64,000 bases of DNA from Escherichia coli. Lineage in GTDB: Bacteria > Pseudomonadota > Gammaproteobacteria > Enterobacterales > Enterobacteriaceae. Under the pieces are notes generated by a model, which was given only the letters and a program-made list of their open reading frames with translations, ran no database searches and was not told where the DNA came from. This document shows positions 3,588 to 36,314 of this stretch, piece by piece (the first letter of the stretch is position 1; each line of letters starts with the position of its first letter). A program made the translations under genes and the position numbers. Location: the NCBI RefSeq assembly GCF_002854065.1, contig NZ_CP024147.1; one strand, 5' to 3'.

Positions 3588-5129
<1,542 letters not shown>

Positions 5130-5572: not shown

Positions 5573-8146
5573 TTACTGGACGGCGACAATCCGGTCTTCA
5601 TTAACTTCCAGGCGAATCACTTTACCCGGAACCAATTCACCAGACAGTATTTGCTGTGCCAACGGGTTTTCGATCTGCTGCTGGATAGCACGTTTCAAAG
5701 GACGTGCACCATAGACTGGATCGTAACCGTTCTCGCTCAGCAGTTTCAGCGCCTCGTCAGAAATGTGGATTTCATAACCACGTTCTTCCAGACGTTTGTA
5801 CAGACGTTTCAACTGAATCTGCGCAATCGAGGCAATGTGCTGTTCGCCCAGCGGATGGAAGACCACCACTTCATCGATACGGTTAATGAACTCCGGACGG
5901 AAGTTATGGCTTACCACACCGAGCACCAGTTCTTTCATATGCGCATAATCCAGTTCACCGAAGCGTTCCTGAATCAAATCGGAACCGAGGTTAGAGGTCA
6001 TAATGACAACCGTATTACGGAAGTCGACCGTTCTCCCCTGCCCGTCAGTCAGACGCCCATCATCCAGTACCTGCAACAGAATGTTGAAGACATCCGGATG
6101 CGCTTTTTCCACTTCATCCAGCAGGATAACGGAATACGGACGACGACGCACAGCTTCGGTCAGGTAGCCACCTTCTTCATAACCAACATATCCCGGAGGC
6201 GCACCAACCAGACGAGACACCGAGTGTTTCTCCATAAACTCGGACATATCGATACGGACCATCGCCTCGTCGCTATCAAACATAAAGTTCGCCAGCGCCT
6301 TACAAAGCTCAGTTTTCCCCACACCAGTTGGGCCGAGGAACAGGAATGAACCAATCGGGCGATTTGGATCCGCCAGCCCCGCACGGCTACGACGAATAGC
6401 GTTAGATACCGCATCAACCGCTTCGTTCTGACCAATAACGCGATGGTGCAGTTCTTGCTCCATACGCAGCAGTTTTTCGCGCTCGCTTTCCATCATGCGA
6501 GAAACCGGAATCCCCGTCCAACGCGCCAGCACTTCAGCAATTTCGGCGTCGGTCACTTTATTACGCAACAGACGCATAGTTTTGCCTTCGAGCTGCGTTG
6601 CGGCTTCCAGTTGCTTTTCCAGCTCCGGGATTTTGCCGTATTGCAGTTCAGACATCCGCGCCAGGTCACCCACACGGCGAGCCTGTTCAATAGCGATTTT
6701 CGCCTGTTCCAGTTCCGCTTTAATGGTCTGCGTACCAGAAAGCGATGCTTTCTCTGCTTTCCACTCTTCTTCTAACTCGGAGTACTGACGTTCTTTGTCG
6801 CTCAGTTCTTCGTTGAGCATATCCAGACGTTTTTTACTGGCTTCATCAGACTCTTTCATTAACGCCTGTTGTTCCAGTTTGAGCTGGATGATACGGCGAT
6901 CGAGTCGGTCGAGTTCTTCTGGTTTTGAGTCAATCTGCATACGAATGCTGGATGCTGCTTCATCGATCAGGTCGATGGCTTTATCCGGCAGCTGACGGTC
7001 AGCAATGTAGCGATGAGACAACGTCGCCGCTGCAACAATTGCCGGGTCAGTAATTTGCACATGGTGGTGCAATTCGTAACGTTCTTTCAGGCCACGTAGA
7101 ATCGCAATGGTATCTTCAACAGAAGGCTCGGCAACAAACACTTTCTGGAAACGACGTTCCAGCGCAGCATCTTTTTCGATGTACTGGCGATATTCGTCAA
7201 GCGTCGTGGCACCTACGCAGTGCAATTCACCACGCGCCAGCGCCGGTTTCAGCATGTTTCCGGCGTCCATTGCGCCATCGGCTTTACCCGCGCCGACCAT
7301 GGTATGTAATTCGTCGATAAACAGGATGACGTTGCCTTCCTGTTTGGCAAGATCGTTAAGCACGCCTTTTAAACGTTCTTCAAACTCACCGCGATATTTC
7401 GCCCCAGCCACCAGCGCGCCCATATCCAGCGCCAGTACGCGGCGGCCTTTCAACCCTTCCGGCACTTCGCCGTTGATAATACGCTGCGCCAGACCTTCAA
7501 CGATGGCAGTTTTACCGACGCCGGGTTCACCAATCAGTACCGGATTATTTTTAGTACGACGTTGCAGCACCTGAATGGTACGGCGAATTTCTTCATCACG
7601 ACCAATCACCGGATCGAGTTTGCCCTGTTCGGCTCGTTCGGTAAGGTCGATGGTATATTTTTTCAAAGCCTGACGTTGGTCTTCAGCACCTTGATCGTTC
7701 ACGCTTTCACCTCCACGCATTTGTTCAATCGCTTGAGTAATGTTGGCGGTGGTCGCCCCTGCTGCTTTCAGGATGTCGGCCAGCGTGCCGCGAGACTCAA
7801 GTGCCGCCAGAACGAACAGTTCTGACGAGATAAAGTTATCACCACGTTTTTGCGCCAGCTTGTCGCAAAGATTAAGAACGCGCACCAGATCCTGTGATGG
7901 CTGGACATCACCACCAGTACCTTCAACCTGCGGTAAACGATTTAATGCCTGATTGATATCTGTGCGCAACTGGCCAGCATTTATGCCAGCTGATGTTAAC
8001 AAAGGACTAACCGAACCCCCTTCCTGATTCAGCAGGGCGCTCATTAAATGAAGTGGTTCGATGAATTGGTTGTCGTGCCCGAGTGCAAGTGATTGGGCAT
8101 CGGCAAGAGCAAGCTGGAATTTATTAGTAAGACGATCCAGACGCAT
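5573..8146 (-). CDS. clpB: ClpB disaggregase (AAA+ chaperone, Hsp100)
   Basis: ORF track 861 aa; N-terminus from [18 protein letters not shown] onward, two Walker A motifs ([16 protein letters not shown]); start moved to the fifth in-frame Met (857 aa). Confidence 0.95.
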
Positions 8147-8214: not shown

Positions 8215-8275
8215 TTATTGACCAGATTAATGTGAAAAGAAAATCACACGTACCGGATCGTCTTGATTCTTTAGG

Positions 8276-9007
8276 TTATATCAGCCAAATGAAACTTGCC
8301 ATACGCCCGGTGGTCTTGTCGCGACGATAAGAGAAGAAAGTCTCATTTTCCGTATATGTACAACGGTCGCCGCCGAAAATTTGTTCAACACCAACGCTCC
8401 CCAGACGCTGCCGGGCAAGCAGATAAATATCCGCCAGATACTTATCACCATGCTGAATGAAAGCTGTACTCGCTTTGGCGTCTGCTGCCATAAACGCCTC
8501 GCGAACCTCCGCCCCCACTTCGAACGCGCGTGGACCAATTGCCGGCCCTAACCAGGCGAGAATATTTTCCGGATTATCAGCAAAACAGGAAACTGTCTCT
8601 TCCAGCACGCCTGCGCGCAGTCCACGCCAGCCAGCATGAGCGGCGGCGACTTCCGTTCCCGCTCGATTGCAAAACAGCACAGGGAGGCAGTCGGCAGTCA
8701 TCACTGCGCAAACCGTGCCAGGCGTATTGCTATAAGAGGCATCTGCTCGTTTTGAGGCATAAGGTTCGCCAGTAAGCTTAAGCACATCTTTGCCGTGTAC
8801 CTGCTCAAGCCAGACCGGTTTAGAAGGCAAATTGCCCGCAGCAAAAAGTCGCTTGCGATTCTCCTCAACGTGATCCGGGTTATCGCCACAATGGGCACCG
8901 AGGTTGAGCGAGTCATACGGGGGCAAGCTCACGCCGCCGATACGAGTAGAGCTACAAGCCGCAACACCTTTTGGCAGCGGCCACTGCGGGACAATCAGCT
9001 TACTCAT
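8276..9007 (-). CDS. yfiH: YfiH/PgeF family purine nucleoside phosphorylase / peptidoglycan editing factor
   Basis: 243-aa ORF with K-12-like sequence; 4-nt overlap with rluD. Confidence 0.9.
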   Translation of the reverse strand: MSKLIVPQWPLPKGVAACSSTRIGGVSLPPYDSLNLGAHCGDNPDHVEENRKRLFAAGNLPSKPVWLEQVHGKDVLKLTGEPYASKRADASYSNTPGTVCAVMTADCLPVLFCNRAGTEVAAAHAGWRGLRAGVLEETVSCFADNPENILAWLGPAIGPRAFEVGAEVREAFMAADAKASTAFIQHGDKYLADIYLLARQRLGSVGVEQIFGGDRCTYTENETFFSYRRDKTTGRMASFIWLI

Positions 9008-9984
9008 AACCAGTCCACTTCATCCTTATGTTCTTCGAAATCGGCACGCATCGCCTCAATCAGCTCCACCATATCTTGTGGAATAGGCGCATGCCATTCC
9101 ATTTCGATGCCGGAGATCGGGTGATAAAGACGCAGCATGGTTGCATGAAGCGCCTGGCGGTCAAACTTACGCAGCGTGGAGATAAACGCTTCCGAAGCAC
9201 CTTTTGGCGGACGCGGACGGCCACCATAAACCGGATCGCCCACCAGCGGATGAGTGATATGGGCCATATGCACGCGGATCTGGTGCGTACGTCCAGTTTC
9301 CAGACGCAACCGCAGACGCGTGTGCACACGGAAGTGTTCCATGATGCGATAGTGAGTCACCGCTGGTTTGCCCATCGGATGCACCGCCATGTGAGTACGT
9401 TTGGTCGGGTGGCGACTGATTGGCTCATCCACCGTACCGCCAGCGGTCATATGACCAATCGCCACCGCTTCGTACTCACGAGTAATTTCACGCCTTTGCA
9501 AAGATTCGACTAAACGCGTCTGAGCCGGAACGGTTTTTGCCACAACCATCAGGCCAGTGGTGTCTTTATCCAGACGATGGACGATGCCCGCACGCGGTAC
9601 ATCGGCAATAGGCGGATAATAATGAAGCAACGCATTCAGTACCGTGCCATCCGGGTTACCCGCGCCAGGATGAACCACCAGGTCGCGCGGTTTATTAATG
9701 ACGATGATGTCTTCATCTTCATAGACGATATCCAGCGGGATATCCTGCGGTTCAAAACGCGCTTCTTCTTCAATCTCTGCGTTGATGGCAACCTGCTCGC
9801 CACCCAATACTTTTTCTTTCGGCTTATCACAAAGTTTGCCGTTAACCAGCACGCGCTGGTCGAGGATCCATTCTTTTATTCGCGAACGTGAATAATCCGG
9901 GAACATTTCGGCCAAAGCCTGATCTAAGCGTTGACCGAGTTGGTTTTCGGACACCGTTGCAGTGAGCTGTACTCGTTGTGCCAT
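9004..9984 (-). CDS. rluD: 23S rRNA pseudouridine synthase RluD
   Basis: 326-aa ORF, S4 domain N-terminus and pseudouridine synthase motif HRLDKDTTGLMVVAK. Confidence 0.95.
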   Translation of the reverse strand: MAQRVQLTATVSENQLGQRLDQALAEMFPDYSRSRIKEWILDQRVLVNGKLCDKPKEKVLGGEQVAINAEIEEEARFEPQDIPLDIVYEDEDIIVINKPRDLVVHPGAGNPDGTVLNALLHYYPPIADVPRAGIVHRLDKDTTGLMVVAKTVPAQTRLVESLQRREITREYEAVAIGHMTAGGTVDEPISRHPTKRTHMAVHPMGKPAVTHYRIMEHFRVHTRLRLRLETGRTHQIRVHMAHITHPLVGDPVYGGRPRPPKGASEAFISTLRKFDRQALHATMLRLYHPISGIEMEWHAPIPQDMVELIEAMRADFEEHKDEVDWL

Positions 9985-10118
9985 ATATACTGCTTCTTCG
10001 TTTATCGTTGGGGTTTTACGGCTTTGCCGTTTAATATAGTGTGCTATTGTAGCTGGTCTTAACCGGGAGCAGGAACAGAGAATCTCCCGTATTACATTTT
10101 GAGGAAAGTCAAAACGTC

Positions 10119-23976: not shown

Positions 23977-24603
<627 letters not shown>

Positions 24604-25656: not shown

Positions 25657-27318
25657 ATGTTGGCACAACTGACCATCAGCAACTTTGCTATCGTTCGTGA
25701 GCTTGAGATTGATTTTCATAGCGGCATGACCGTAATAACTGGCGAAACCGGTGCGGGTAAATCTATTGCAATAGATGCCCTCGGTCTTTGTCTCGGTGGT
25801 CGCGCTGAAGCCGACATGGTGCGTACCGGCGCTGCTCGCGCTGACCTGTGCGCCCGTTTTTCTCTGAAAGATACGCCAGCGGCCCTGCGCTGGCTGGAAG
25901 AAAACCAGCTTGAAGACGGGCATGAATGTTTGCTTCGTCGCGTAATCAGCAGCGATGGTCGCTCTCGTGGTTTCATCAACGGTACAGCTGTTCCTCTGTC
26001 ACAACTGCGCGAACTGGGTCAGTTGCTCATTCAGATCCATGGTCAGCACGCTCATCAGTTACTCACCAAACCCGAGCACCAAAAATTCCTGCTTGATGGC
26101 TACGCTAATGAAACCTCTCTGCTCCAGGAAATGACCGCACGTTATCAGTTGTGGCACCAAAGCTGCCGTGACCTCGCGCATCATCAACAGTTAAGTCAGG
26201 AACGCGCTGCCCGTGCGGAACTGCTGCAATACCAATTAAAAGAACTTAACGAATTTAATCCGCAGCCCGGAGAGTTTGAGCAAATCGACGAAGAGTACAA
26301 ACGTCTGGCGAACAGCGGTCAATTGCTGACCACCAGCCAGAATGCATTGGCATTAATGGCCGACGGTGAAGACGCAAACCTGCAAAGTCAGCTTTACACG
26401 GCTAAACAACTGGTGAGCGAATTGATTGGCATGGACAGCAAACTGTCCGGCGTACTTGATATGCTGGAAGAAGCTACCATCCAGATTGTTGAAGCCAGCG
26501 ACGAACTGCGCCACTACTGCGATCGTCTGGATCTCGATCCCAACCGACTGTTTGAACTTGAACAGCGCATCTCAAAACAGATTTCGCTGGCACGTAAACA
26601 TCACGTCAGCCCTGAGACATTGCCACAGTATTACCAGTCGCTACTGGAAGAACAGCAGCAACTGGACGATCAGGCCGACTCACAAGAAACGCTCGCGCTG
26701 GCGGTAACGAAACATCATCAGCAGGCACTGGAAACGGCGCGCGCATTACACCAGCAACGCCAGCATTATGCAGAAGAACTTGAACAGCTGATCACCGACA
26801 GCATGCATGCGCTCTCAATGCCGCATGGGCAGTTTACGATTGATGTCAAATTTGACGAGCATCACCTGGGCGCTGACGGCGCCGATCGTATTGAGTTTCG
26901 GGTAACCACCAACCCAGGTCAGCCAATGCAGCCTATTGCCAAAGTCGCATCCGGTGGTGAATTGTCCCGCATCGCATTGGCAATTCAGGTCATCACGGCG
27001 CGTAAAATGGAAACCCCGGCACTGATTTTTGATGAAGTGGATGTAGGGATTAGCGGTCCAACAGCGGCAGTTGTCGGCAAACTGCTGCGTCAACTCGGCG
27101 AATCAACTCAGGTGATGTGTGTTACCCACCTGCCACAAGTCGCGGGATGTGGTCATCAACACTATTTTGTCAGCAAAGAAACCGATGGTGCGATGACAGA
27201 AACGCATATGCAATCTCTGGATAAAAAAGCGCGGTTACAAGAGCTGGCGCGCCTGCTTGGTGGCAGTGAAGTCACACGTAACACACTGGCGAATGCGAAA
27301 GAACTGCTTGCGGCGTAA
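25657..27318 (+). CDS. recN: DNA repair protein RecN (SMC-like ATPase)
   Basis: 553-aa ORF, Walker A GETGAGKS, coiled-coil middle. Confidence 0.95.
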
Positions 27319-27466
27319 ACTTTTTTCCTGCTTCACGGTCAGAGTAAACAGCAAAACGCCGTAAGACCGGAAAGCAAAAGGTTTTAAAGTGATGAAAGGT
27401 CTATTATCATCGGCATATTACAGATGAGCCACGTACTGCTCGGGCCCGAAAAGGAATCAAATCACT

Positions 27467-27808
27467 ATGCGCTGTAAAACGCTGACTGCTGCAGCAGCAG
27501 TACTATTGATGTTGACCGCAGGCTGTTCCACTCTGGAGCGAGTGGTTTACCGTCCTGACATCAACCAGGGGAACTATCTGACCGCTAACGACGTATCCAA
27601 AATACGTGTTGGCATGACGCAACAACAAGTTGCGTACGCATTGGGTACACCGCTGATGTCCGATCCATTTGGTACGAATACCTGGTTCTATGTCTTCCGC
27701 CAGCAACCAGGTCATGAAGGTGTAACGCAGCAAACGCTGACGCTAACCTTTAACAGTAGCGGTGTGTTGACCAATATTGATAACAAACCTGCGCTGAGTG
27801 GTAACTAA
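27467..27808 (+). CDS. bamE: Outer membrane protein assembly factor BamE (lipoprotein)
   Basis: 113-aa ORF, lipobox LTAGC. Confidence 0.93.
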
Positions 27809-27834
27809 TAATAAAGTTGCTCTCAAAGACGTTA

Positions 27835-27862
27835 AAAAAGGTGCTCAATGAGCACCTTTTTT
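27835..27862. terminator. Bidirectional terminator between bamE and ratB
   Basis: aaaaaaggtgctc-aatg-agcacctttttt: perfect hairpin with A-run and T-run on either side. Confidence 0.7.
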
Positions 27863-27869
27863 CTGTCCG

Positions 27870-28160
27870 TTATTTATTCGCTGATTTTTCTGCTCGTTGC
27901 CTGCGAAGCTCTTTCGGATCGGCAATGAGAGGGCGATAAATCTCCACCCGATCACCATCATGCACACTATCGCTTAGTTTTGCCGGACGGCTGTAAATGC
28001 CGACTTTGTTTTTAGTTAAATCGATATCGGTCCGCAATTCCAGCAAGCCACTGGCGCGAATAGCTTCTTCAACCGTCGCGCCCTCCTGCAGCGTCACGCG
28101 CTGCAGGTACTGCTTCTCAGGTAGCGCATAAGCCACCTCAACGGCAATTTTACCTGGCAC
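27870..28160 (-). CDS. ratB: RatB (YfjF; RnfH/ubiquitin-like fold)
   Basis: Conserved region begins at a GTG codon ([19 protein letters not shown]...), giving 96 aa; the ORF-track N-terminal extension overlaps ratA. Confidence 0.75.
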
Positions 28161-28626
28161 TGTAAACCTCTTTCGCACGAACCGTAAAAGCCTGGACCAT
28201 ATTAGACGCCAGCTCTTTAAACACGCGACCAAAGGCGAGCTCAATCAACTTATTGGTAAACTCAAAGTCGAGATGAAACTCGATACGACACGCCTCCTGG
28301 CTCAGCGGCGTAAACTTCCATCCACCAATCAATTTCTTGAACGGCCCATCCACCAGATTCATAAGAATACTTTGGTTACTGGTCAACTGGTTGCGGGTAG
28401 TAAACGTTTTGCTGATCCCAGCCTTAGAGACATCTACCGCCGCAGTCATCTGCCCAGGAGTGGACTCCAGAATCCGACTTCCGGTACAACCCGGCAAAAA
28501 CTGAGGATAAGACTGAACGTCATTCACTAACTGATACATTTGCTCCGCGCTGTAGGGTACCAGTGCGGTCCGGCTAATCTGAGGCATAACAATTTCCATC
28601 AACAAAAATCCAACAAATAATATCAT
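28150..28626 (-). CDS. ratA: Ribosome-association toxin RatA (SRPBCC / polyketide-cyclase-like fold)
   Basis: 158-aa ORF; true start may be the internal [16 protein letters not shown]. Confidence 0.85.
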
Positions 28627-28757
28627 TTATCCTGCTGTAAAAAAAACGCTATCCCGGCGCTGGGTAACATCGGGTTCATGCTAAGATAGAGCCTTGTCCC
28701 CCGCAGGATTGATATGGGGTGTTTTCGATTTCAGATTACCGATGATTCACGACGCTT

Positions 28758-29240
28758 ATGACGAAGAAAAAAGCACATAAACCTGGTTCAGCGACCATCG
28801 CGCTTAACAAGCGCGCCCGTCACGAATACTTTATCGAAGAAGAGTTCGAAGCGGGACTTGCCCTGCAAGGCTGGGAAGTTAAATCCCTGCGCGCAGGAAA
28901 AGCCAATATCAGCGACAGCTACGTCCTTCTGCGTGACGGAGAGGCATTTCTGTTTGGCGCTAACATCACGCCAATGGCCGTGGCCTCCACGCATGTGGTG
29001 TGCGATCCTACCCGTACCCGCAAGTTACTTCTCAACCAGCGCGAACTGGACTCATTGTACGGTCGCGTCAATCGAGAAGGCTATACCGTAGTGGCGCTCT
29101 CCCTGTACTGGAAAAATGCCTGGTGCAAAGTGAAAATCGGCGTCGCCAAAGGTAAGAAACAGCACGATAAACGTTCAGATATCAAAGAGCGCGAATGGCA
29201 GGTGGATAAAGCGCGTATCATGAAAAATGCCCACCGTTAA
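28758..29240 (+). CDS. smpB: SsrA-binding protein SmpB
   Basis: 160-aa [54 protein letters not shown]... Confidence 0.95.
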
Positions 29241-29454
29241 ACCTGCACTCCAATTATTGACCAGTTCCTCACCGCGCCTCCCTCTCCGGCGGCGCGAATG
29301 AACATCTTATTGGTTATCACATCCGACACAAATGTTGCCATTCCATTGCTTAATCGAATAAAAATCAGGCTACATGGGTGCTAAATCTTTAACGATAACG
29401 CCATTGAGGCTGGTCATGGCGCTCATAAATCTGGTATACTTACCTTTACACATT

Positions 29455-29817
29455 GGGGCTGATTCTGGATTCGACGGGATTTGCGAAACCCAAGGTGCAT
29501 GCCGAGGGGCGGTTGGCCTCGTAAAAAGCCGCAAAAAATAGTCGCAAACGACGAAAACTACGCTTTAGCAGCTTAATAACCTGCTTAGAGCCCTCTCTCC
29601 CTAGCCTCCGCTCTTAGGACGGGGATCAAGAGAGGTCAAACCCAAAAGAGATCGCGTGGAAGCCCTGCCTGGGGTTGAAGCGTTAAAACTTAATCAGGCT
29701 AGTTTGTTAGTGGCGTGTCCGTCCGCAGCTGGCAAGCGAATGTAAAGACTGACTAAGCATGTAGTACCGAGGATGTAGGAATTTCGGACGCGGGTTCAAC
29801 TCCCGCCAGCTCCACCA
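29455..29817 (+). ncRNA. ssrA: tmRNA (transfer-messenger RNA)
   Basis: ggggctgattctggattcgacggg ... gcgggttcaactcccgccagctccacca; internal tag reading frame gcaaacgacgaaaactacgctttagcagcttaa (ANDENYALAA-stop). Confidence 0.95.
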
Positions 29818-30020
29818 AAATTCTCCATCGGTGATTACCAGAGTCATCCGATGAAGTCCTAAGAGCCCGCACGGCGCAAGCCCTGCGGGCTTTTTTGTGC
29901 CCTGAATTTGTCCCGCGAAGTCCGAAGAGAACTAATTAAATCCGAACCTTTTAGGCCCATTGATAGGCCCAACGAAAAGCTCTATTGTTTTCGTTGGGCC
30001 TAAACGCATGGAGACTCCCC

Positions 30021-31262
30021 ATGGCAAGAAAAACCAAGCCGTTAACCGATACGGAAATCAAAGCCGCCAAACCTAAAGATGCCGATTACCAGCTGTATGA
30101 TGGTGACGGGCTTACTCTGCTAATCAAGTCCAGCGGTAGTAAGCTCTGGCAGTTCCGTTACTATCGACCTCTGACCAAGCAGCGAACCAAGCAGAGCTTC
30201 GGAGCCTATCCAGCCGTCTCCCTTTCTGATGCGCGTAAACTCAGAGCTGAATCTCGAGCTTTGTTGGCGAAAGACATTGATCCTCAGGAACATCAGAAAG
30301 AACAGGTGAGAAATTCTCAAGAGGCCAAAACCAACACTTTCCGGTTAGTTGCCGAGCGTTGGTGGAATGTGAAGAAAGCCAGCGTAACAGAGGACTATGC
30401 CGACGATATCTGGCGCTCGCTTGAGAGGGATGTTCTCCCGGCAATCGGTGATATCAGTGTCACTGAGATTAAGGCTCATACTTTGGTTAAAGCAGTTCAT
30501 CCGGTTCAGGCCAGAGGTGCATTAGAGACAGTCCGCCGCCTTTGTCAGCGTATTAACGAAGTCATGATTTATGCGCAGAACACAGGCCTGATTGATGCGG
30601 TTCCCAGCGTAAACATCGGGAAAGCATTCGAGAAACCGCAAAAGAAAAACATGCCAAGCATCCACCCAGGTCAACTTCCACAGCTAATGCAGACTATGCG
30701 TACGGCAAGTATCAGCCTGTCCACACGATGCCTGTTCATGTGGCAGCTTCTCACCATCACCCGCCCTGCCGAAGCTGCTGAGGCTCGATGGGATGAGATC
30801 GATTTCGATGCTAGCGAATGGAAAATTCCAGCTGCTCGAATGAAGATGAATCGGGAGCATACGGTTCCATTATCTGATGGAGCTCTCGCTATTCTGGAAA
30901 TAATGAAGTCTCTCAGCGGTGGTCGAGAATTTATCTTTCCCAGTCGCATTAAGCCTACCCAGCCGATGAACAGCCAGACAGTAAATGCAGCCCTTAAGCG
31001 TGCTGGTTTAGGAGGCGTACTCGTTTCACACGGCTTACGTTCTATTGCCAGTACGGCACTCAATGAGGAAGGATTTCCGCCTGATGTTATTGAGGCTGCA
31101 CTTGCTCATGTAGATAAGAATGAGGTACGTCGCGCTTACAATCGAAGTGACTATCTTGAGCAACGACGACCGATGATGCAGTGGTGGGCTGATTTTGTTA
31201 AAGCAGCAGATAGCGGCAGTATCGTGAATAGTGGGGTTAGGGGAATACGTCTTGTAGGATGA
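30021..31262 (+). CDS. intA: P4-type tyrosine integrase (prophage remnant at the ssrA attachment site)
   Basis: Start moved to MARKTKPLTDTEIKAAKPKDADYQLYDGDGLTL... (413 aa); C-terminal catalytic region includes HGLRS and a tyrosine near the end. Confidence 0.9.
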   Translation: MARKTKPLTDTEIKAAKPKDADYQLYDGDGLTLLIKSSGSKLWQFRYYRPLTKQRTKQSFGAYPAVSLSDARKLRAESRALLAKDIDPQEHQKEQVRNSQEAKTNTFRLVAERWWNVKKASVTEDYADDIWRSLERDVLPAIGDISVTEIKAHTLVKAVHPVQARGALETVRRLCQRINEVMIYAQNTGLIDAVPSVNIGKAFEKPQKKNMPSIHPGQLPQLMQTMRTASISLSTRCLFMWQLLTITRPAEAAEARWDEIDFDASEWKIPAARMKMNREHTVPLSDGALAILEIMKSLSGGREFIFPSRIKPTQPMNSQTVNAALKRAGLGGVLVSHGLRSIASTALNEEGFPPDVIEAALAHVDKNEVRRAYNRSDYLEQRRPMMQWWADFVKAADSGSIVNSGVRGIRLVG

Positions 31263-31536
31263 ATCCTTTATCAGCACCCATTATGGGTGCTGATAACTCA
31301 CCTATAGGTAATACGGAATTTTACCCTTTGGTTTTCTTTTTTCTAGTAACCGTATTATCGAAAGCCAATTTGATACTCTCAATATTTCTTGACCAGTTTT
31401 TTATAATGGTATCTGCCAATGCATCAGGGCTCATTGTTGATATCCGATATTTTTTACTTTGATTATTAATTTCAAAATTTGGGTGATGCTGCCAACTTAC
31501 TGATTTAGTGTATGATGGTGTTTTTGAGGTGCTCCA

Positions 31537-31812
31537 GTGGCTTCTGTTTCTATCAGCTGTCCCTCCTGTTCAGCTACTGACGGGGTGGTGCGTAACGGCA
31601 AAAGCACTGCCGGACATCAGCGCTATCTCTGCTCTCACTGCCGTAAAACATGGCAACTGCAGTTCACTTACACCGCTTCTCAACCCGGTACGCACCAGAA
31701 AATCATTGATATGGCCATGAATGGCGTTGGATGCCGGGCAACCGCCCGCATTATGGGCGTTGGCCTCAACACGATTTTCCGCCATTTAAAAAACTCAGGC
31801 CGCAGTCGGTAA
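31537..31812 (+). CDS. insA: IS1 InsA (transposition inhibitor; N-terminal part of the InsAB' transposase)
   Basis: 91-aa [68 protein letters not shown]...; the -1 frameshift site A6C (ttaaaaaactc) lies near 31788-31794. Confidence 0.9.
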
Positions 31813-32234
31813 CCTCGCGCATACAGCCGGGCAGTGACGTCATCGTCTGCGCGGAAATGGACGAACAGTGGGGATACGTCGGGGCTAAATCGCGCCAGCG
31901 CTGGCTGTTTTACGCGTATGACAGGCTCCGGAAGACGGTTGTTGCGCACGTATTCGGTGAACGCACTATGGCGACGCTGGGGCGTCTTATGAGCCTGCTG
32001 TCACCCTTTGACGTGGTGATATGGATGACGGATGGCTGGCCGCTGTATGAATCCCGCCTGAAGGGAAAGCTGCACGTAATCAGCAAGCGATATACGCAGC
32101 GAATTGAGCGGCATAACCTGAATCTGAGGCAGCACCTGGCACGGCTGGGACGGAAGTCGCTGTCGTTCTCAAAATCGGTGGAGCTGCATGACAAAGTCAT
32201 CGGGCATTATCTGAACATAAAACACTATCAATAA
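31731..32234 (+). CDS. insB: IS1 InsB reading frame (expressed as InsAB' by -1 frameshift)
   Basis: 167-aa ORF overlapping the insA 3-prime end in the -1 frame. Confidence 0.9.
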
Positions 32235-32249
32235 GTTGGAGTCATTACC

Positions 32250-33713
32250 GAAAAAGGTTACTGGTTTCACGCTTATCAACCCGAAGATCTTTGTACCATC
32301 CACAATCCAATGGGAGATTTGCAGGATTTTATCGCATTGGTTAAAGATGCTAAAAAATTTGGTATCGATATCATTCCTGATTATACCTTTAACTTTATGG
32401 GAATCGGGGGTAGTAGTAAAAATGACCTGGATTATCCCTCTGCTGATATACGAGCGAAGATCAGTAAAGATATAGAAGGTGGTATCCCTGGCTATTGGCA
32501 AGGTCAGGTTTTGATTCCATTTATTATCGATCCAGTAACAAAAGAACGTAAACAAATCCATCCAGAAGATATACATCTCACTGCAAAAGACTTCGAAGCT
32601 AGTAAAGATAATATTTCTAAGGATGAATGGGAAAACCTCCATGCATTAAAAGAAAAGCGTTTAAACGGAATGCCTAAAACAACCCCAAAAAGTGACCAGG
32701 TTATTATGCTGCAAAATCAATACGTTCGTGAAATGCGAAAATATGGCGTACGAGGTTTACGTTATGATGCGGCAAAACACTCAAAACATGAACAAATAGA
32801 AAGATCAATAACCCCACCGCTTAAAAATTATAATGAGCGATTACACAATACTAACTTATTTAACCCAAAATATCATGAAAAAGTCGTTATGAATTACATG
32901 GAATATCTGGTAACTTGCCAGTTGGATGAACAACAAATGTCATCGCTACTTTATGAAAGAGATGATTTAAGCGCCATTGATTTTTCATTGCTCATGAAGA
33001 CGATAAAAGCCTTTTCATTTGGTGGCGATCTCCAAACCCTTGCATCAAAACCGGGTTCCACAATCTCAAGCATCCCATCAGAAAGACGGATATTGATTAA
33101 CATTAACCACGATTTTCCTAACAATGGCAATCTTTTCAATGACTTTCTATTTAACCATCAACAAGATGAACAATTAGCAATGGCATATATGGCCGCTCTC
33201 CCGTTCAGCAGGCCTTTAGTTTACTGGGATGGCCAAGTATTAAAATCAACGACTGAAATTAAAAATGATGATGGGTCGACGCGTGTCGGCGGTGAGGCGT
33301 GGCTTAATAAAGGTTGCTCTACCTATCAGCAGCTCTACAATGAATTCCACGCATTATATATAGATAAAGCAGGAATATGGAGCGCATTTGAGGGTGTATT
33401 TGCAACTAAAAACGTTCTGGCCTTTAGTCGTGGGGATTCTGTGAATATTAATCACTCTCCTCATGACGGACTAGTTATAATAAATAAAGGAAACGAAGAA
33501 GTTGAAGGTACCTGGCCTAACAAATTGCAACCTGGAAAATATAAAAACATGGGGAGTAATAGCGTTAACATTATTATTAATAATACCCGAAAATTTATCC
33601 CCCCTGGTAAAGTATTTACGCTTAGAGGCGGAACTCTAAATATCAATATTCCTGGGCGTAGCGCTCTTCTTTTAGGGAAAACAGGAGAACTGCCGAACTA
33701 TCTCTATTTGTAA
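32250..33713 (+). pseudogene. 5-prime-truncated glycoside hydrolase family 13 (alpha-amylase-like) gene, cut by IS1
   Basis: Frame is open from the IS1 boundary; GH13-like conserved blocks GDLQDFIALVKDAKKFGIDIIPD, GLRYDAAKH and ININHD are present but the N-terminal part of the barrel is missing; no Shine-Dalgarno before the first ATG (32310). Confidence 0.6.
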
Positions 33714-33725
33714 TTTAATGTTATA

Positions 33726-33749
33726 TCTGCCCCGCTAAAACGGGGCAGA
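33726..33749 (+). terminator. Perfect dyad after the GH13 fragment
   Basis: atctgccccg-ctaaaa-cggggcagat, 10-bp perfect arms; no strong T-run follows. Confidence 0.4.
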
Positions 33750-34006
33750 TAATATGTTTAGTTTACTGACGGTCATTTTGCAGTGAAGCCATTTACTGTT
33801 TTTTATCGACCAGATAATCTGTTCTCTGATGGTAATTCCCCCCTAACCTGTTGCTTTAGTTATTCATTTCCTGTCTCACTTTGCCTTAATACCCTACGTT
33901 AAATGTTACTAATTTGTTGTTTTTGATCACAATAAGTAAACAATATGTCGCTTTTGTGCGCATTTTTCAGAAATGTAGATATTTTTAGATTATGGCTACG
34001 AAATGA

Positions 34007-35026
<1,020 letters not shown>

Positions 35027-35045
35027 GCGCAAAGGAATTGAGCGG

Positions 35046-36314
35046 ATGTATGATTTTGTGATTATTGGCGGCGGCATCATCGGCATGTCGACCGCCATGC
35101 AACTGATTGATGTCTACCCGGACGCCCGCATTGCGTTGCTGGAAAAAGAGTCCGGCCCGGCCTGTCACCAGACGGGCCACAACAGCGGCGTGATCCATGC
35201 CGGGGTTTATTACACGCCCGGCAGTCTGAAGGCGCAGTTTTGCCTGGCGGGAAACCGCGCCACCAAAGCCTTTTGCGATCAAAACGGCATTCGCTACGAC
35301 AACTGCGGCAAGATGCTGGTCGCCACGTCTGAACTCGAAATGGAACGGATGCGCGCCTTATGGGAACGCACGGCGGCGAACGGCATCGAGCGCGAGTGGT
35401 TAAACGCCGATGAACTGCGCGAGCGCGAACCGAATATCACCGGGCTTGGCGGTATTTTTGTGCCGTCCAGCGGCATTGTCAGCTACCGCGAAGTCACGGC
35501 GGCGATGGCAAAAATCTTCCAGGCCAGAGGCGGCGAGATTATCTATAACGCCGAAGTCAGCGCCCTCAGTGAGCATAAAAACGGCGTGGTGATACGTACC
35601 CGTCAGGGCGGTGAATATGAAGCATCGACGCTGATTAGCTGCTCCGGGCTGATGGCTGACCGGCTGGTGAAAATGCTCGGCCTCGAACCGGGCTTTATTA
35701 TCTGCCCGTTCCGTGGCGAGTATTTCCGCCTGGCGCCGGAGCATAACCAGATTGTTAACCATCTGATTTACCCCATTCCCGATCCGGCAATGCCGTTTTT
35801 GGGCGTTCATCTCACCCGCATGATCGACGGTAGCGTCACCGTTGGGCCAAACGCAGTGCTGGCGTTCAAACGCGAAGGCTATCGCAAGCGCGACTTCTCA
35901 TTTAGCGACACGCTGGAGATTTTAGGCTCGTCGGGGATTCGCCGGGTGCTGCAAAACCATCTACGCTCAGGACTGGGCGAGATGAAAAACTCGCTGTGCA
36001 AAAGCGGCTATCTGCGGCTGGTGCAAAAGTATTGTCCCCGGCTTTCGTTAAGCGATCTCCAGCCCTGGCCCGCCGGTGTGCGGGCGCAGGCGGTATCGCC
36101 GGACGGCAAGCTGATTGACGATTTTCTGTTTGTCACCACCCCGCGCACGATCCACACCTGCAATGCGCCCTCCCCGGCAGCGACATCAGCAATTCCTATT
36201 GGTGCGCATATTGTCAGCAAGGTACAAACGCTGTTGGCAAGCCAGAGTAACCCCGGACGCACGCTGCGAGCGGCACGTAGTGTGGATGCCTTACACGCCG
36301 CATTTAATCAATAA
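35046..36314 (+). CDS. lhgO: L-2-hydroxyglutarate oxidase/dehydrogenase (FAD)
   Basis: Start moved to MYDFVIIGGGIIGMSTAMQL (FAD-binding GxGxxG), 422 aa. Confidence 0.9.
   Translation: MYDFVIIGGGIIGMSTAMQLIDVYPDARIALLEKESGPACHQTGHNSGVIHAGVYYTPGSLKAQFCLAGNRATKAFCDQNGIRYDNCGKMLVATSELEMERMRALWERTAANGIEREWLNADELREREPNITGLGGIFVPSSGIVSYREVTAAMAKIFQARGGEIIYNAEVSALSEHKNGVVIRTRQGGEYEASTLISCSGLMADRLVKMLGLEPGFIICPFRGEYFRLAPEHNQIVNHLIYPIPDPAMPFLGVHLTRMIDGSVTVGPNAVLAFKREGYRKRDFSFSDTLEILGSSGIRRVLQNHLRSGLGEMKNSLCKSGYLRLVQKYCPRLSLSDLQPWPAGVRAQAVSPDGKLIDDFLFVTTPRTIHTCNAPSPAATSAIPIGAHIVSKVQTLLASQSNPGRTLRAARSVDALHAAFNQ

What the first reader, a model, noticed from the sequence alone, without database searches (positions are those of the whole stretch)
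31473..32258. IS1 lacks a target-site duplication, pointing to an IS1-mediated deletion
The 9 bp on the left of IS1 (caaaatttg) and on the right (gaaaaaggt) are different, whereas simple IS1 insertion makes 8-9-bp direct repeats. The right end abuts the middle of a GH13 gene and the left end abuts prophage-remnant sequence. This fits an IS1 insertion followed by an adjacent deletion (or recombination between two IS1 copies) that removed the intervening DNA.
Basis: seen in the sequence. Interest (0 to 1): 0.4.

Follow-up and report, generated by a model that had tools for sequence, protein, structure and literature searches.

The report
IS1 marks a stepwise 26-kb deletion
An intact IS1 insertion sequence sits where about 26 kb of E. 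coli DNA has been lost (most of a prophage-like island next to the tmRNA gene, an adhesin gene, a tRNA gene and the first third of an amylase-like gene); this is an ordinary, well-documented kind of IS1-driven deletion.

Summary
IS1 is exactly 768 bp (31482-32249) with perfect terminal repeats. Its 9-bp flanks, caaaatttg and gaaaaaggt, are unrelated, and no shift of the boundaries produces a repeat.

- **Left flank:** the last 161 bp of a yfjH-like gene of a CP4-57-type island beside ssrA/intA.
- **Right flank:** starts at codon 264 of a 750-codon ygaQ-like GH13 gene.
- **Size of the loss:** on a composite reference (island from one assembly, backbone from near-clonal strain 100416) the two points lie 25,770 bp apart. 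About 16.6 kb is island and about 9.2 kb is backbone (ypjA, ypjCB, ileY, 5' ygaQ).

Three linked loci in the same clone carry the identical IS1 in the same orientation, with nested junctions on both sides:
- an NCTC strain has lost 19.5 kb;
- the window has lost 25.8 kb;
- CUWW06 has lost 109 bp more on the left and 51 bp more on the right.

So probably neither flank is the original insertion site, and the loss was stepwise. The NCTC strain also has a second, simple IS1 insertion with a 9-bp duplication 5.7 kb away. One-ended adjacent deletion and IS1-IS1 recombination therefore both remain possible. This is a known phenomenon of low interest.

The parts
29455..29817 (+). ssrA (tmRNA), the attachment site of the island; smpB lies just upstream at 28758-29240
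   Evidence: ARAGORN; ORF list; synteny with annotated relatives
30021..31262 (+). intA-type tyrosine integrase (413 aa) of a CP4-57-type island; the only complete island gene left
   Evidence: ORF. 100% identical to the CUWW06 gene annotated intA. The exact protein is found on many contigs, with Pfam Arm-DNA-bind_3, Phage_int_M and Phage_integrase.
31321..31481 (-). Remnant of a yfjH-like gene: its last 52 codons plus stop. The 5' 718 bp of the gene are deleted.
   Evidence: Collinear with the full 879-bp gene in MS 115-1 (L007 20722-21600) and L010 (11301-12179). The remnant translates to the C-terminus NFEINNQ...KTKG*. No Pfam family.
31473..31481 (.). Left junction 9-mer caaaatttg (deletion endpoint in the island; composite coordinate 4803)
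31482..32249 (+). Intact IS1 (IS1B-type), 768 bp. IRL 31482-31504, IRR 32227-32249, insA 31537-31812, insB' frame 31731-32234, A6C frameshift motif 31788-31794.
   Evidence: Pfam Zn_ribbon_InsA, HTH_Tnp_IS1 and DDE_Tnp_IS1. 0 differences from the copies in CUWW06, ET846 and the NCTC strain. PGAP annotates the identical CUWW06 copy as an IS1B family transposase with programmed frameshift.
32250..32258 (.). Right junction 9-mer gaaaaaggt (deletion endpoint in the GH13 gene; composite coordinate 30574)
   Evidence: The same junction is present in L033, L034 and L036.
32250..33713 (+). 3' 1,464 bp (codons 264-750 plus stop) of a ygaQ-like GH13 gene; the 5' 789 bp are deleted. The longest ORF left is 32310-33713 (467 aa).
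   Evidence: Alignments to the intact or full-length gene in 100416, MS 115-1, RM9513 and ZH177. In the intact protein Pfam PF00128 matches residues 264-525 and PF02806 matches 649-738; in the remnant only PF02806 is found.
34049..35026 (+). glaH (csiD), the first undisturbed backbone gene to the right; the 335-bp upstream intergenic region is intact

Best explanation
The IS1 at 31482-32249 marks an IS1-mediated deletion.

**What was there before (inferred).** An ancestor of this E. coli clone carried an ~18-kb CP4-57-type island at ssrA, followed by the backbone:
- Island: intA, yfjH-like, alpA, yfjI, yfjJ, a 512-aa protein, a helicase/methylase pair, yfjP-T homologues, antirestriction, RadC-like, CbeA/CbtA.
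- Backbone: ypjA, a pin remnant, ypjCB, ileY and the ygaQ-like GH13 gene.

**What happened (inferred).** An IS1 copy in this stretch deleted DNA next to itself, repeatedly and on both sides. The route I favour is intramolecular one-ended ('adjacent deletion') transposition. An IS1 end is joined to a nearby target on the same molecule, the DNA between is lost, IS1 stays complete, and no target duplication is made.

**What is shown.** The window's state (25,770 bp missing) lies between two other states of the same clone: 19,459 bp missing in an NCTC strain, and 109 bp (left) plus 51 bp (right) more missing in CUWW06. Also shown are the element, its exact ends, the lack of a duplication, the identity and truncation of both flanks, the size of the gap, and the nesting of junctions in near-identical genomes.

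**What is inferred.** The order of the steps, and that IS1 transposase rather than homologous recombination made each junction.
For: 1. **Exact ends, unrelated flanks.** IS1 ends are exact and the flanks are unrelated.
2. **Flanks map to distant points.** They are 7.4 kb apart in MS 115-1, ~29.8 kb in K-12 and 25,770 bp on the composite reference.
3. **Nested junctions in three linked loci.** Apart from the IS1 junction differences, these loci differ from the window by 0-3 mismatches/gaps over the aligned 1.4-11.3 kb flanking stretches. All carry a 100% identical IS1 in the same orientation. Composite coordinates, left | right:
   - NCTC strain: 10104 | 29564
   - window: 4803 | 30574
   - CUWW06: 4694 | 30625

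4. **Intermediate half-junctions in draft contigs.** Contigs sharing the window's exact integrase or GlaH protein add left junctions at 10104 and 5106 and a right junction at 24262, inside ypjA. The right-side contigs differ from the window by 4-5 positions in ~11.3 kb. Of the left-side contigs with these junctions, only one of the three at 10104 (L014) includes core flank; it differs at 4 positions in 9.4 kb.
5. **Small steps fit short-range events.** The 51-bp and 109-bp steps with exact retention of the IS1 ends are easy for short-range intramolecular transposition. Insertion plus recombination would need a second IS1 only 51-109 bp away.
6. **IS1-like target sites.** Three of the four left-junction 9-mers (caaaatttg, gccaatttg, ctgattttg) and one of the four right-junction 9-mers (cacaatcca) have G/C ends and an A/T-rich core, in 33-42% GC DNA. 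My recollection is that this is the IS1 target preference; the preference itself was not checked here.
7. **An independent parallel.** DX6 and MB06173, in another lineage, share one IS1/GH13 junction but differ by ~2.1 kb on the left.
8. **An IS1-rich clone.** At least 38-40 IS1 matches per chromosome in CUWW06 and 100416.
9. **Published precedent.** Deletions of 11-66 kb with one end fixed at an IS1 terminus and the other variable are documented in clinical E. coli (PMC10569738). Missing duplications are conventionally attributed to adjacent deletion or IS-IS recombination (PMC11708052).
Against: - The final sequence cannot distinguish one-ended transposition from a second IS1 insertion followed by IS1 x IS1 recombination.
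- The NCTC strain (and a second sample) really does hold two identical, directly oriented IS1 copies 5.7 kb apart in this island. One of them is a simple insertion with a 9-bp duplication, so the recombination route is available in this clone.
- The 109-bp difference between the window and CUWW06 on the left is bounded by a 6-bp repeat (aatttg). That would also fit replication slippage without transposase.
- Apart from the three linked loci, left and right junctions come from separate draft contigs and cannot be paired.
- The order of events is inferred from nesting, not from a phylogeny.
- The window-type left junction itself was not seen in any other assembly.
Confidence: 0.85

Rival explanations
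1. Two-step route through a two-IS1 intermediate. A second IS1 inserted nearby in direct orientation, as a simple insertion with a duplication. RecA-dependent recombination between the two identical copies then removed the DNA between them, leaving one IS1 with one flank from each parent copy.
For: The NCTC strain (L022/L037) and Logan sample SRR2000279 carry exactly such a pair. IS1 #1 has the duplication gattttaac inside the yfjH-like gene, and IS1 #2 lies 5.7 kb to the right. Both are 100% identical and in the same orientation. Many IS1 copies (38-40 or more) are available as partners.
Against: No genome or contig shows a simple insertion, or the reciprocal half-junction, at either of the window's junction positions. 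This was tested in 5,426 complete genomes and by an exact look-up of the predicted truncated ORF. Recombination between the observed pair would put the left junction at composite 5219, not 4803. The 51-bp and 109-bp steps would need insertions almost touching the resident IS1. All copies are identical, so no chimeric IS1 could reveal a crossover.
Confidence: 0.3
2. The deletion was not made by IS1. Either DNA was lost by another process and IS1 later inserted at the scar, or IS1 was captured at a break during the deletion (the TSD-less 'IS at the centre of a rearrangement' proposed in PMC11708052).
For: PMC11708052 reports IS movements associated with large rearrangements and without duplications. 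The left 109-bp window-to-CUWW06 difference has 6-bp microhomology typical of slippage.
Against: A later simple insertion at a scar would still make a 9-bp duplication, and none is present. In all three linked states both deletion ends coincide exactly with IS1 termini. That is expected if IS1 ends make the junctions and improbable otherwise. The right 51-bp step has at most 1 bp of microhomology.
Confidence: 0.05
3. Either this is a simple insertion whose duplication decayed or whose boundary was miscalled, or the join is an assembly artefact across a collapsed IS1 repeat.
For: The source of the window and its sequencing technology are unknown. The window-type left junction was not found in any other assembly.
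Against: The boundaries are exact and no shifted repeat exists. The flanks are collinear with loci 7-30 kb apart in every relative examined. The complete chromosome record of CUWW06 shows the same architecture, only 160 bp shorter. The window-type right junction occurs in three other assemblies.
Confidence: 0.03

Closest known systems
IS1-promoted adjacent (one-ended, intramolecular) deletions. Sources: Reif & Saedler 1975 in the gal region, from my own knowledge; Turlan & Chandler 1995 (EMBO J 14:5410), cited in PMC12428005 but not readable here; clinical examples in PMC10569738.
   Same: A complete IS1 is retained, the deletion starts exactly at an IS1 terminus, there is no target duplication, the distal endpoints vary and fall in coding sequence, and the sizes run from tens of bp to tens of kb. 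PMC10569738 reports 11-66 kb deletions flush with IRR or IRL in isolates holding 12-24 IS1 copies.
   Different: Here the events are natural and historical, not selected in the laboratory. They appear on both sides of one IS1, and several successive stages survive in different isolates of one clone. Transposase dependence is not shown.
Deletion by homologous recombination between two directly repeated IS copies, the other standard cause of missing duplications (PMC11708052)
   Same: The end product is a single IS with one flank from each parent. A real two-copy state exists in a clone-mate.
   Different: The positions of the two copies seen do not match the window's junctions, and no matching half-duplications were found.
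CP4-57 cryptic prophage/island at ssrA of E. coli K-12 and the adjacent ypjA-ypjCB-ileY-ygaQ-glaH backbone
   Same: Same attachment site. Same gene order: intA, a divergently oriented gene, alpA, yfjI, yfjJ..., yfjP-T homologues, antirestriction, RadC-like, and a type IV toxin-antitoxin pair. Then ypjA, pin remnant, ypjCB, ileY, ygaQ, glaH.
   Different: The integrase is a different allele: about 94% nucleotide identity to K-12 over the ssrA-intA stretch (105 differences in 1,775 bp) and 89% over the 3' part of intA. The cargo differs too: a helicase/N6_N4 methylase pair where K-12 has abpAB and rnlAB. In the window only intA and 161 bp of the next gene survive.
IS150-associated deletions in the Lenski long-term lines (PMC11708052)
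   Same: IS copies without duplications sit next to deletions of 14 bp to 49 kb, classed as adjacent deletions.
   Different: A different IS family (IS3) and a laboratory population.

Membership tests
IS1 (IS1 family insertion sequence) | 768-bp element bounded by ~23-bp imperfect inverted repeats GGTGATGCTGCCAACTTACTGAT / GGTAATGACTCCAACTTATTGAT | tested here: met
   Exact matches at 31482-31504 (+) and 32227-32249 (-), giving 768 bp; none expected by chance.
IS1 (IS1 family insertion sequence) | insA and insB' reading frames joined by a -1 frameshift at an A6C motif; InsA zinc-ribbon/HTH domains and an IS1 DDE domain | tested here: met
   ORFs 31537-31812 and 31731-32234. TTAAAAAAC at 31786-31794. 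PF03811 (3e-21), PF12759 (1.7e-30), PF03400 (2.3e-78).
IS1 (IS1 family insertion sequence) | 8-9-bp direct duplication of the target at a simple insertion | tested here: not met
   caaaatttg versus gaaaaaggt, with no shifted repeat. This is a feature of the insertion event, not of the element. It is met by three other IS1 copies at the same locus.
IS-mediated adjacent deletion | Complete IS retained, with the deletion starting exactly at an IS terminus and no duplication | tested here: met
IS-mediated adjacent deletion | The two flanks are non-adjacent in related genomes that lack the event | tested here: met
   7,388 bp apart in MS 115-1, ~29.8 kb in K-12, 25,770 bp on the composite of the same island and the clone's backbone.
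IS-mediated adjacent deletion | Families of deletions that share the IS but have variable, nested distal endpoints | tested here: met
   Left endpoints 10104 > 5106 > 4803 > 4694. Right endpoints 24262 < 29564 < 30574 < 30625. All with an identical IS1 in the same orientation. The three linked loci are strictly nested. A second such family is DX6/MB06173.
IS-mediated adjacent deletion | Dependence on the IS transposase and independence from RecA | not testable with these tools
   Needs genetics in an NCTC-type strain.
Deletion by IS1 x IS1 homologous recombination | An ancestor or relative with two directly oriented IS1 copies at the two junction positions, each with its own duplication | tested here: inconclusive
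   A two-copy state exists in the NCTC strain and SRR2000279, but at composite 5219 and 10104|29564, not at 4803 or 30574. No simple insertion or half-junction at the window's sites in 5,426 genomes or by exact ORF look-up.
GH13 (alpha-amylase family) for the right-hand gene | Match to the alpha-amylase catalytic domain (PF00128) above Pfam's threshold | tested here: met
   The intact 750-aa homologue from strain 100416 scores 23.6 bits against a cut-off of 22 (residues 264-525), plus PF02806 at 30.2 bits. This is a marginal pass. The window's 467-aa remnant matches PF02806 only.
CP4-57-type integrative island at ssrA | Tyrosine integrase immediately 3' of ssrA, followed by alpA/yfjI/yfjJ-type genes, in synteny with K-12 CP4-57 | tested here: met
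   The window keeps ssrA and intA. The rest of the island is seen on contigs with the identical integrase and in K-12. Strain 100416 lacks the whole ~18.2-kb element cleanly at the ssrA core repeat.

The most novel reading that the evidence does not exclude
The ssrA-to-ygaQ interval may be a preferred IS1 sink where loss is favoured, not just tolerated.

- About twenty different IS1 placements occur in the A/T-rich GH13 gene.
- One exact phosphodiester (before gaaaaaggt) has been used independently in two lineages and in both orientations.
- At least three lineages (the window's clone, DX6/MB06173, ET846) have independently reduced the ssrA island to an integrase stub joined by IS1 to a truncated GH13 gene.

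This convergence could reflect selection for losing something in the interval (the ypjA adhesin, the CbtA toxin, island excision functions, ileY). It could also reflect a structural feature that steers IS1 ends to this DNA.
Probability: 0.12. Interest if true: 0.4.

Novelty: already known. Interest (0 to 1): 0.15.

Why it matters
It matters little beyond annotation. It explains why this strain has an orphan integrase beside ssrA, no ileY, no ypjA and a headless amylase-like pseudogene. It also shows that the orphan integrase stub can no longer excise, because alpA and the right attachment site are gone. The surviving series of stages in one clone is a tidy natural illustration of IS1 eroding accessory and neighbouring backbone DNA in both directions. 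It is also a reminder that neither flank of a TSD-less IS need be its original insertion site.

Tried and rejected
- **CUWW06 as the source genome.** I first took CUWW06 as an exact match. Local inspection showed its IS1 junctions differ on both sides, by 109 bp and 51 bp.
- **Low-complexity filter hiding junctions.** I suspected BLAST's filter hid junction matches. The single-piece 300-bp self-hit of ET846 showed that contiguous junctions are reported, so the negative results stand.
- **MS 115-1's IS1 as progenitor.** Rejected: it is only 93% identical, with 52 differences.
- **ET846's inverted IS1 derived from the window's copy.** It sits at the identical nucleotide, but neither homologous recombination nor intramolecular inversion can exchange which IS end is attached to a given flank. 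It must be an independent event (reasoning from the Shapiro model).
- **Half-duplication searches.** Synthetic queries for a simple insertion at the left site, for the reciprocal left half of an insertion at gaaaaaggt, and for the predicted truncated ORF all found nothing.
- **A complete genome with the distal island.** Sought at high identity and not found, so I walked along a draft contig instead.
- **Public-collection scans.** Few E. coli of this clone are expected there, and the exact-protein index had already supplied relatives.
- **Turlan & Chandler 1995.** Could not be read.
Full report
**1. The observation**

The sequence holds a complete IS1 at 31482-32249. It is 768 bp, with the canonical left and right terminal repeats at 31482-31504 and 32227-32249, each unique in the window. 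It has insA (31537-31812), the insB' frame (31731-32234) and the A6C frameshift motif (31788-31794). Pfam matches are to the InsA zinc ribbon, the IS1 HTH domain and the IS1 DDE domain.

They agree at 4 of 9 positions. No repeat appears if the boundaries are shifted: the longest shared k-mer near the ends is 5 bp. Three other IS1 copies at this same locus have perfect 9-bp duplications: RM9513, ZH177 and IS1 #1 of an NCTC strain. The absence here is therefore meaningful.

**2. What the flanks are**

Upstream lie smpB, ssrA (29455-29817) and a 413-aa intA-type integrase (30021-31262). Between the integrase and IS1, bases 31321-31481 are the last 52 codons of a 292-aa yfjH-like gene on the minus strand. 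That gene is complete in MS 115-1 and on contigs carrying the identical integrase.

The right flank starts at codon 264 of a ygaQ-like gene. This gene is an intact 750 codons in strain 100416. Its product marginally passes Pfam's alpha-amylase catalytic-domain threshold (23.6 bits against a cut-off of 22, residues 264-525) and also matches Alpha-amylase_C. glaH, lhgO and gabDTP follow undisturbed.

**3. What is missing**

- In MS 115-1 the two breakpoints are 7,388 bp apart.
- In K-12 the homologous points are about 29.8 kb apart.
- The full island with the window's exact integrase allele was read from a draft contig. Its gene order is intA, yfjH-like, alpA, yfjI, yfjJ, a 512-aa protein, a ResIII/YagJ helicase, an N6_N4 methylase, yfjP-T homologues, DUF905, antirestriction, RadC-like, DUF987 and CbeA/CbtA, followed by ypjA.
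- I joined that island to the backbone of strain 100416. Strain 100416 differs from the window by 0-1 positions in the aligned shared flanks and matches at 99.9-100% over 46 kb of flanking core genome. It lacks the island cleanly at the ssrA core repeat.
- On this composite the window lacks 25,770 bp. About 16.6 kb is island, including its right attachment site. About 9.2 kb is backbone: ypjA, the pin remnant, ypjCB, ileY and 789 bp of the GH13 gene. No tRNA gene is left in 27000-36000.

**4. A series of stages in one clone**

Three linked loci carry an IS1 that is 100% identical to the window's and in the same orientation. Apart from the IS1 junction differences, they differ from the window by 0-3 mismatches or gaps over the aligned 1.4-11.3 kb flanking stretches. 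Their junctions are strictly nested on the composite:

| Locus | Left junction | Right junction | Lost |
|---|---|---|---|
| NCTC strain GCA_900449015.1 | 10104 (cccgtaatt) | 29564 (tatagaact) | 19,459 bp; GH13 gene still full length |
| Window | 4803 | 30574 | 25,770 bp |
| CUWW06 | 4694 | 30625 | 25,930 bp |

Draft contigs sharing the window's exact integrase or GlaH protein end in the same IS1 at left positions 10104, 5106 and 4694. Others begin with it at right positions 24262 (inside ypjA) and 29564. The window-type right junction recurs in three other assemblies or samples.

The simplest reading is that one IS1 has eaten outwards in both directions in steps. If so, neither present flank is its original insertion site.

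**5. Mechanism**

Two IS1-dependent routes give this end state.

*Route A: intramolecular one-ended transposition (adjacent deletion).* I favour this route for four reasons:
- The IS1 termini are exactly preserved at every stage.
- Two steps are only 51 and 109 bp.
- Three of the four left-junction 9-mers have G/C ends and an A/T-rich core in 33-42% GC DNA. The right-junction 9-mers fit this pattern less well.
- The same behaviour is documented experimentally and in clinical isolates (PMC10569738; the general statement is in PMC11708052).

*Route B: a second insertion followed by IS1 x IS1 recombination.* This route is not excluded.
- The NCTC strain and a second sample hold exactly such a pair. 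The new copy is a simple insertion (duplication gattttaac) 5.7 kb from the resident copy.
- Against it for the window's own junctions: no matching simple insertion or half-junction exists in 5,426 complete genomes or in the exact-protein index.
- These negative results are weak, because the clone is sparsely sampled.

The 109-bp left step to CUWW06 is bounded by a 6-bp repeat (aatttg). It could be slippage.

A non-IS1 deletion with later IS1 insertion is unlikely, because that insertion would itself leave a duplication. A misassembly is unlikely given the complete chromosome record of CUWW06 and the independent right-junction contigs.

**6. Comparison and verdict**

This is a member of a long-known class: IS1-promoted deletions, and TSD-less IS copies produced by adjacent deletion or IS-IS recombination. 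The element passes every structural test for IS1. The only defining feature not met, the duplication, is a property of simple insertion events and is explained by the deletion.

The refinement is that the loss was multi-step and two-sided, and removed chromosomal backbone as well as island DNA. The finding is not novel, and interest is low.

**7. Side observations**

- The GH13 gene is a frequent IS1 target, with roughly twenty distinct placements near this point.
- ET846, from another lineage, has an identical IS1 in the opposite orientation abutting the very same nucleotide. This must be an independent event.
- DX6/MB06173 and ET846 have independently reached the same overall architecture: integrase stub, IS1, truncated GH13 gene.

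Convergence driven by selection or by a true hot spot is the most novel reading that the evidence leaves open. I give it about 0.12 probability.

Noticed in passing
L004 (E. coli ET846) 8256-9023, against window 32250: An IS1 100% identical to the window's lies in the opposite orientation, with its IRL abutting exactly the same GH13 nucleotide (...CATCACC|gaaaaaggt). The lineage is different (37 differences in 1,413 bp of the gene), and the junction is unique among 5,426 genomes. Because a flank stays attached to the same IS end through recombination or inversion, this must be an independent hit on the same target.
   Followed up: partly
window 32250-33713 and homologous ygaQ-like genes in relatives: The A/T-rich GH13 gene (33-42% GC) carries roughly twenty different IS1 placements within ~0.65 kb of this point across E. 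coli. Some are simple insertions with perfect 9-bp duplications (RM9513 aaaaagccg, ZH177 atacgagcg). The gene looks like an IS1 sink.
   Followed up: partly
L005 (DX6) 6410-7177 and L006 (MB06173) 8563-9330: A second, independent nested pair at the same locus. Both have IS1|tcatgggtt 466 bp further upstream in the GH13 gene and a different integrase allele. DX6 has lost a further ~2.1 kb on the left, including a 1,740-bp gene.
   Followed up: partly
window 31367-31372 and 31476-31481; L001 7468-7473: The 109 bp that CUWW06 lacks on the left relative to the window are bounded by a 6-bp direct repeat, aatttg. Three of the four left junctions in the clone end in tttg. This is either an IS1 target preference or microhomology-mediated slippage.
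   Followed up: no
L008 (strain 100416) and L001/L011 (CUWW06), upstream of window 29820: Two near-clonal relatives carry a ~33-kb P2-like prophage integrated at ssrA that the window lacks. Strain 100416 also lacks the whole ~18.2-kb CP4-57-type island cleanly at a 38-bp ssrA core repeat. Three different mobile-element states of the ssrA site therefore exist within one clone.
   Followed up: partly
window 27000-36000: ileY (tRNA-Ile, CAU anticodon), which lies ~560 bp upstream of the GH13 gene in relatives, is gone. Only the tmRNA gene is detected in this interval. Whether ileX remains elsewhere in the genome was not checked.
   Followed up: no
L031 7878-12571 (the island on the contig with the identical integrase): The lost part of the island includes an 856-aa ResIII/YagJ helicase and a 708-aa N6_N4 methyltransferase, in the position where K-12 CP4-57 has abpAB and rnlAB. 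This may be a defence-type cargo module; it was not analysed.
   Followed up: no
L015 14205-14257: Another contig with the same integrase allele ends in an inverted IS1 inside the yfjI-yfjJ region, a further independent IS1 hit in this island.
   Followed up: no
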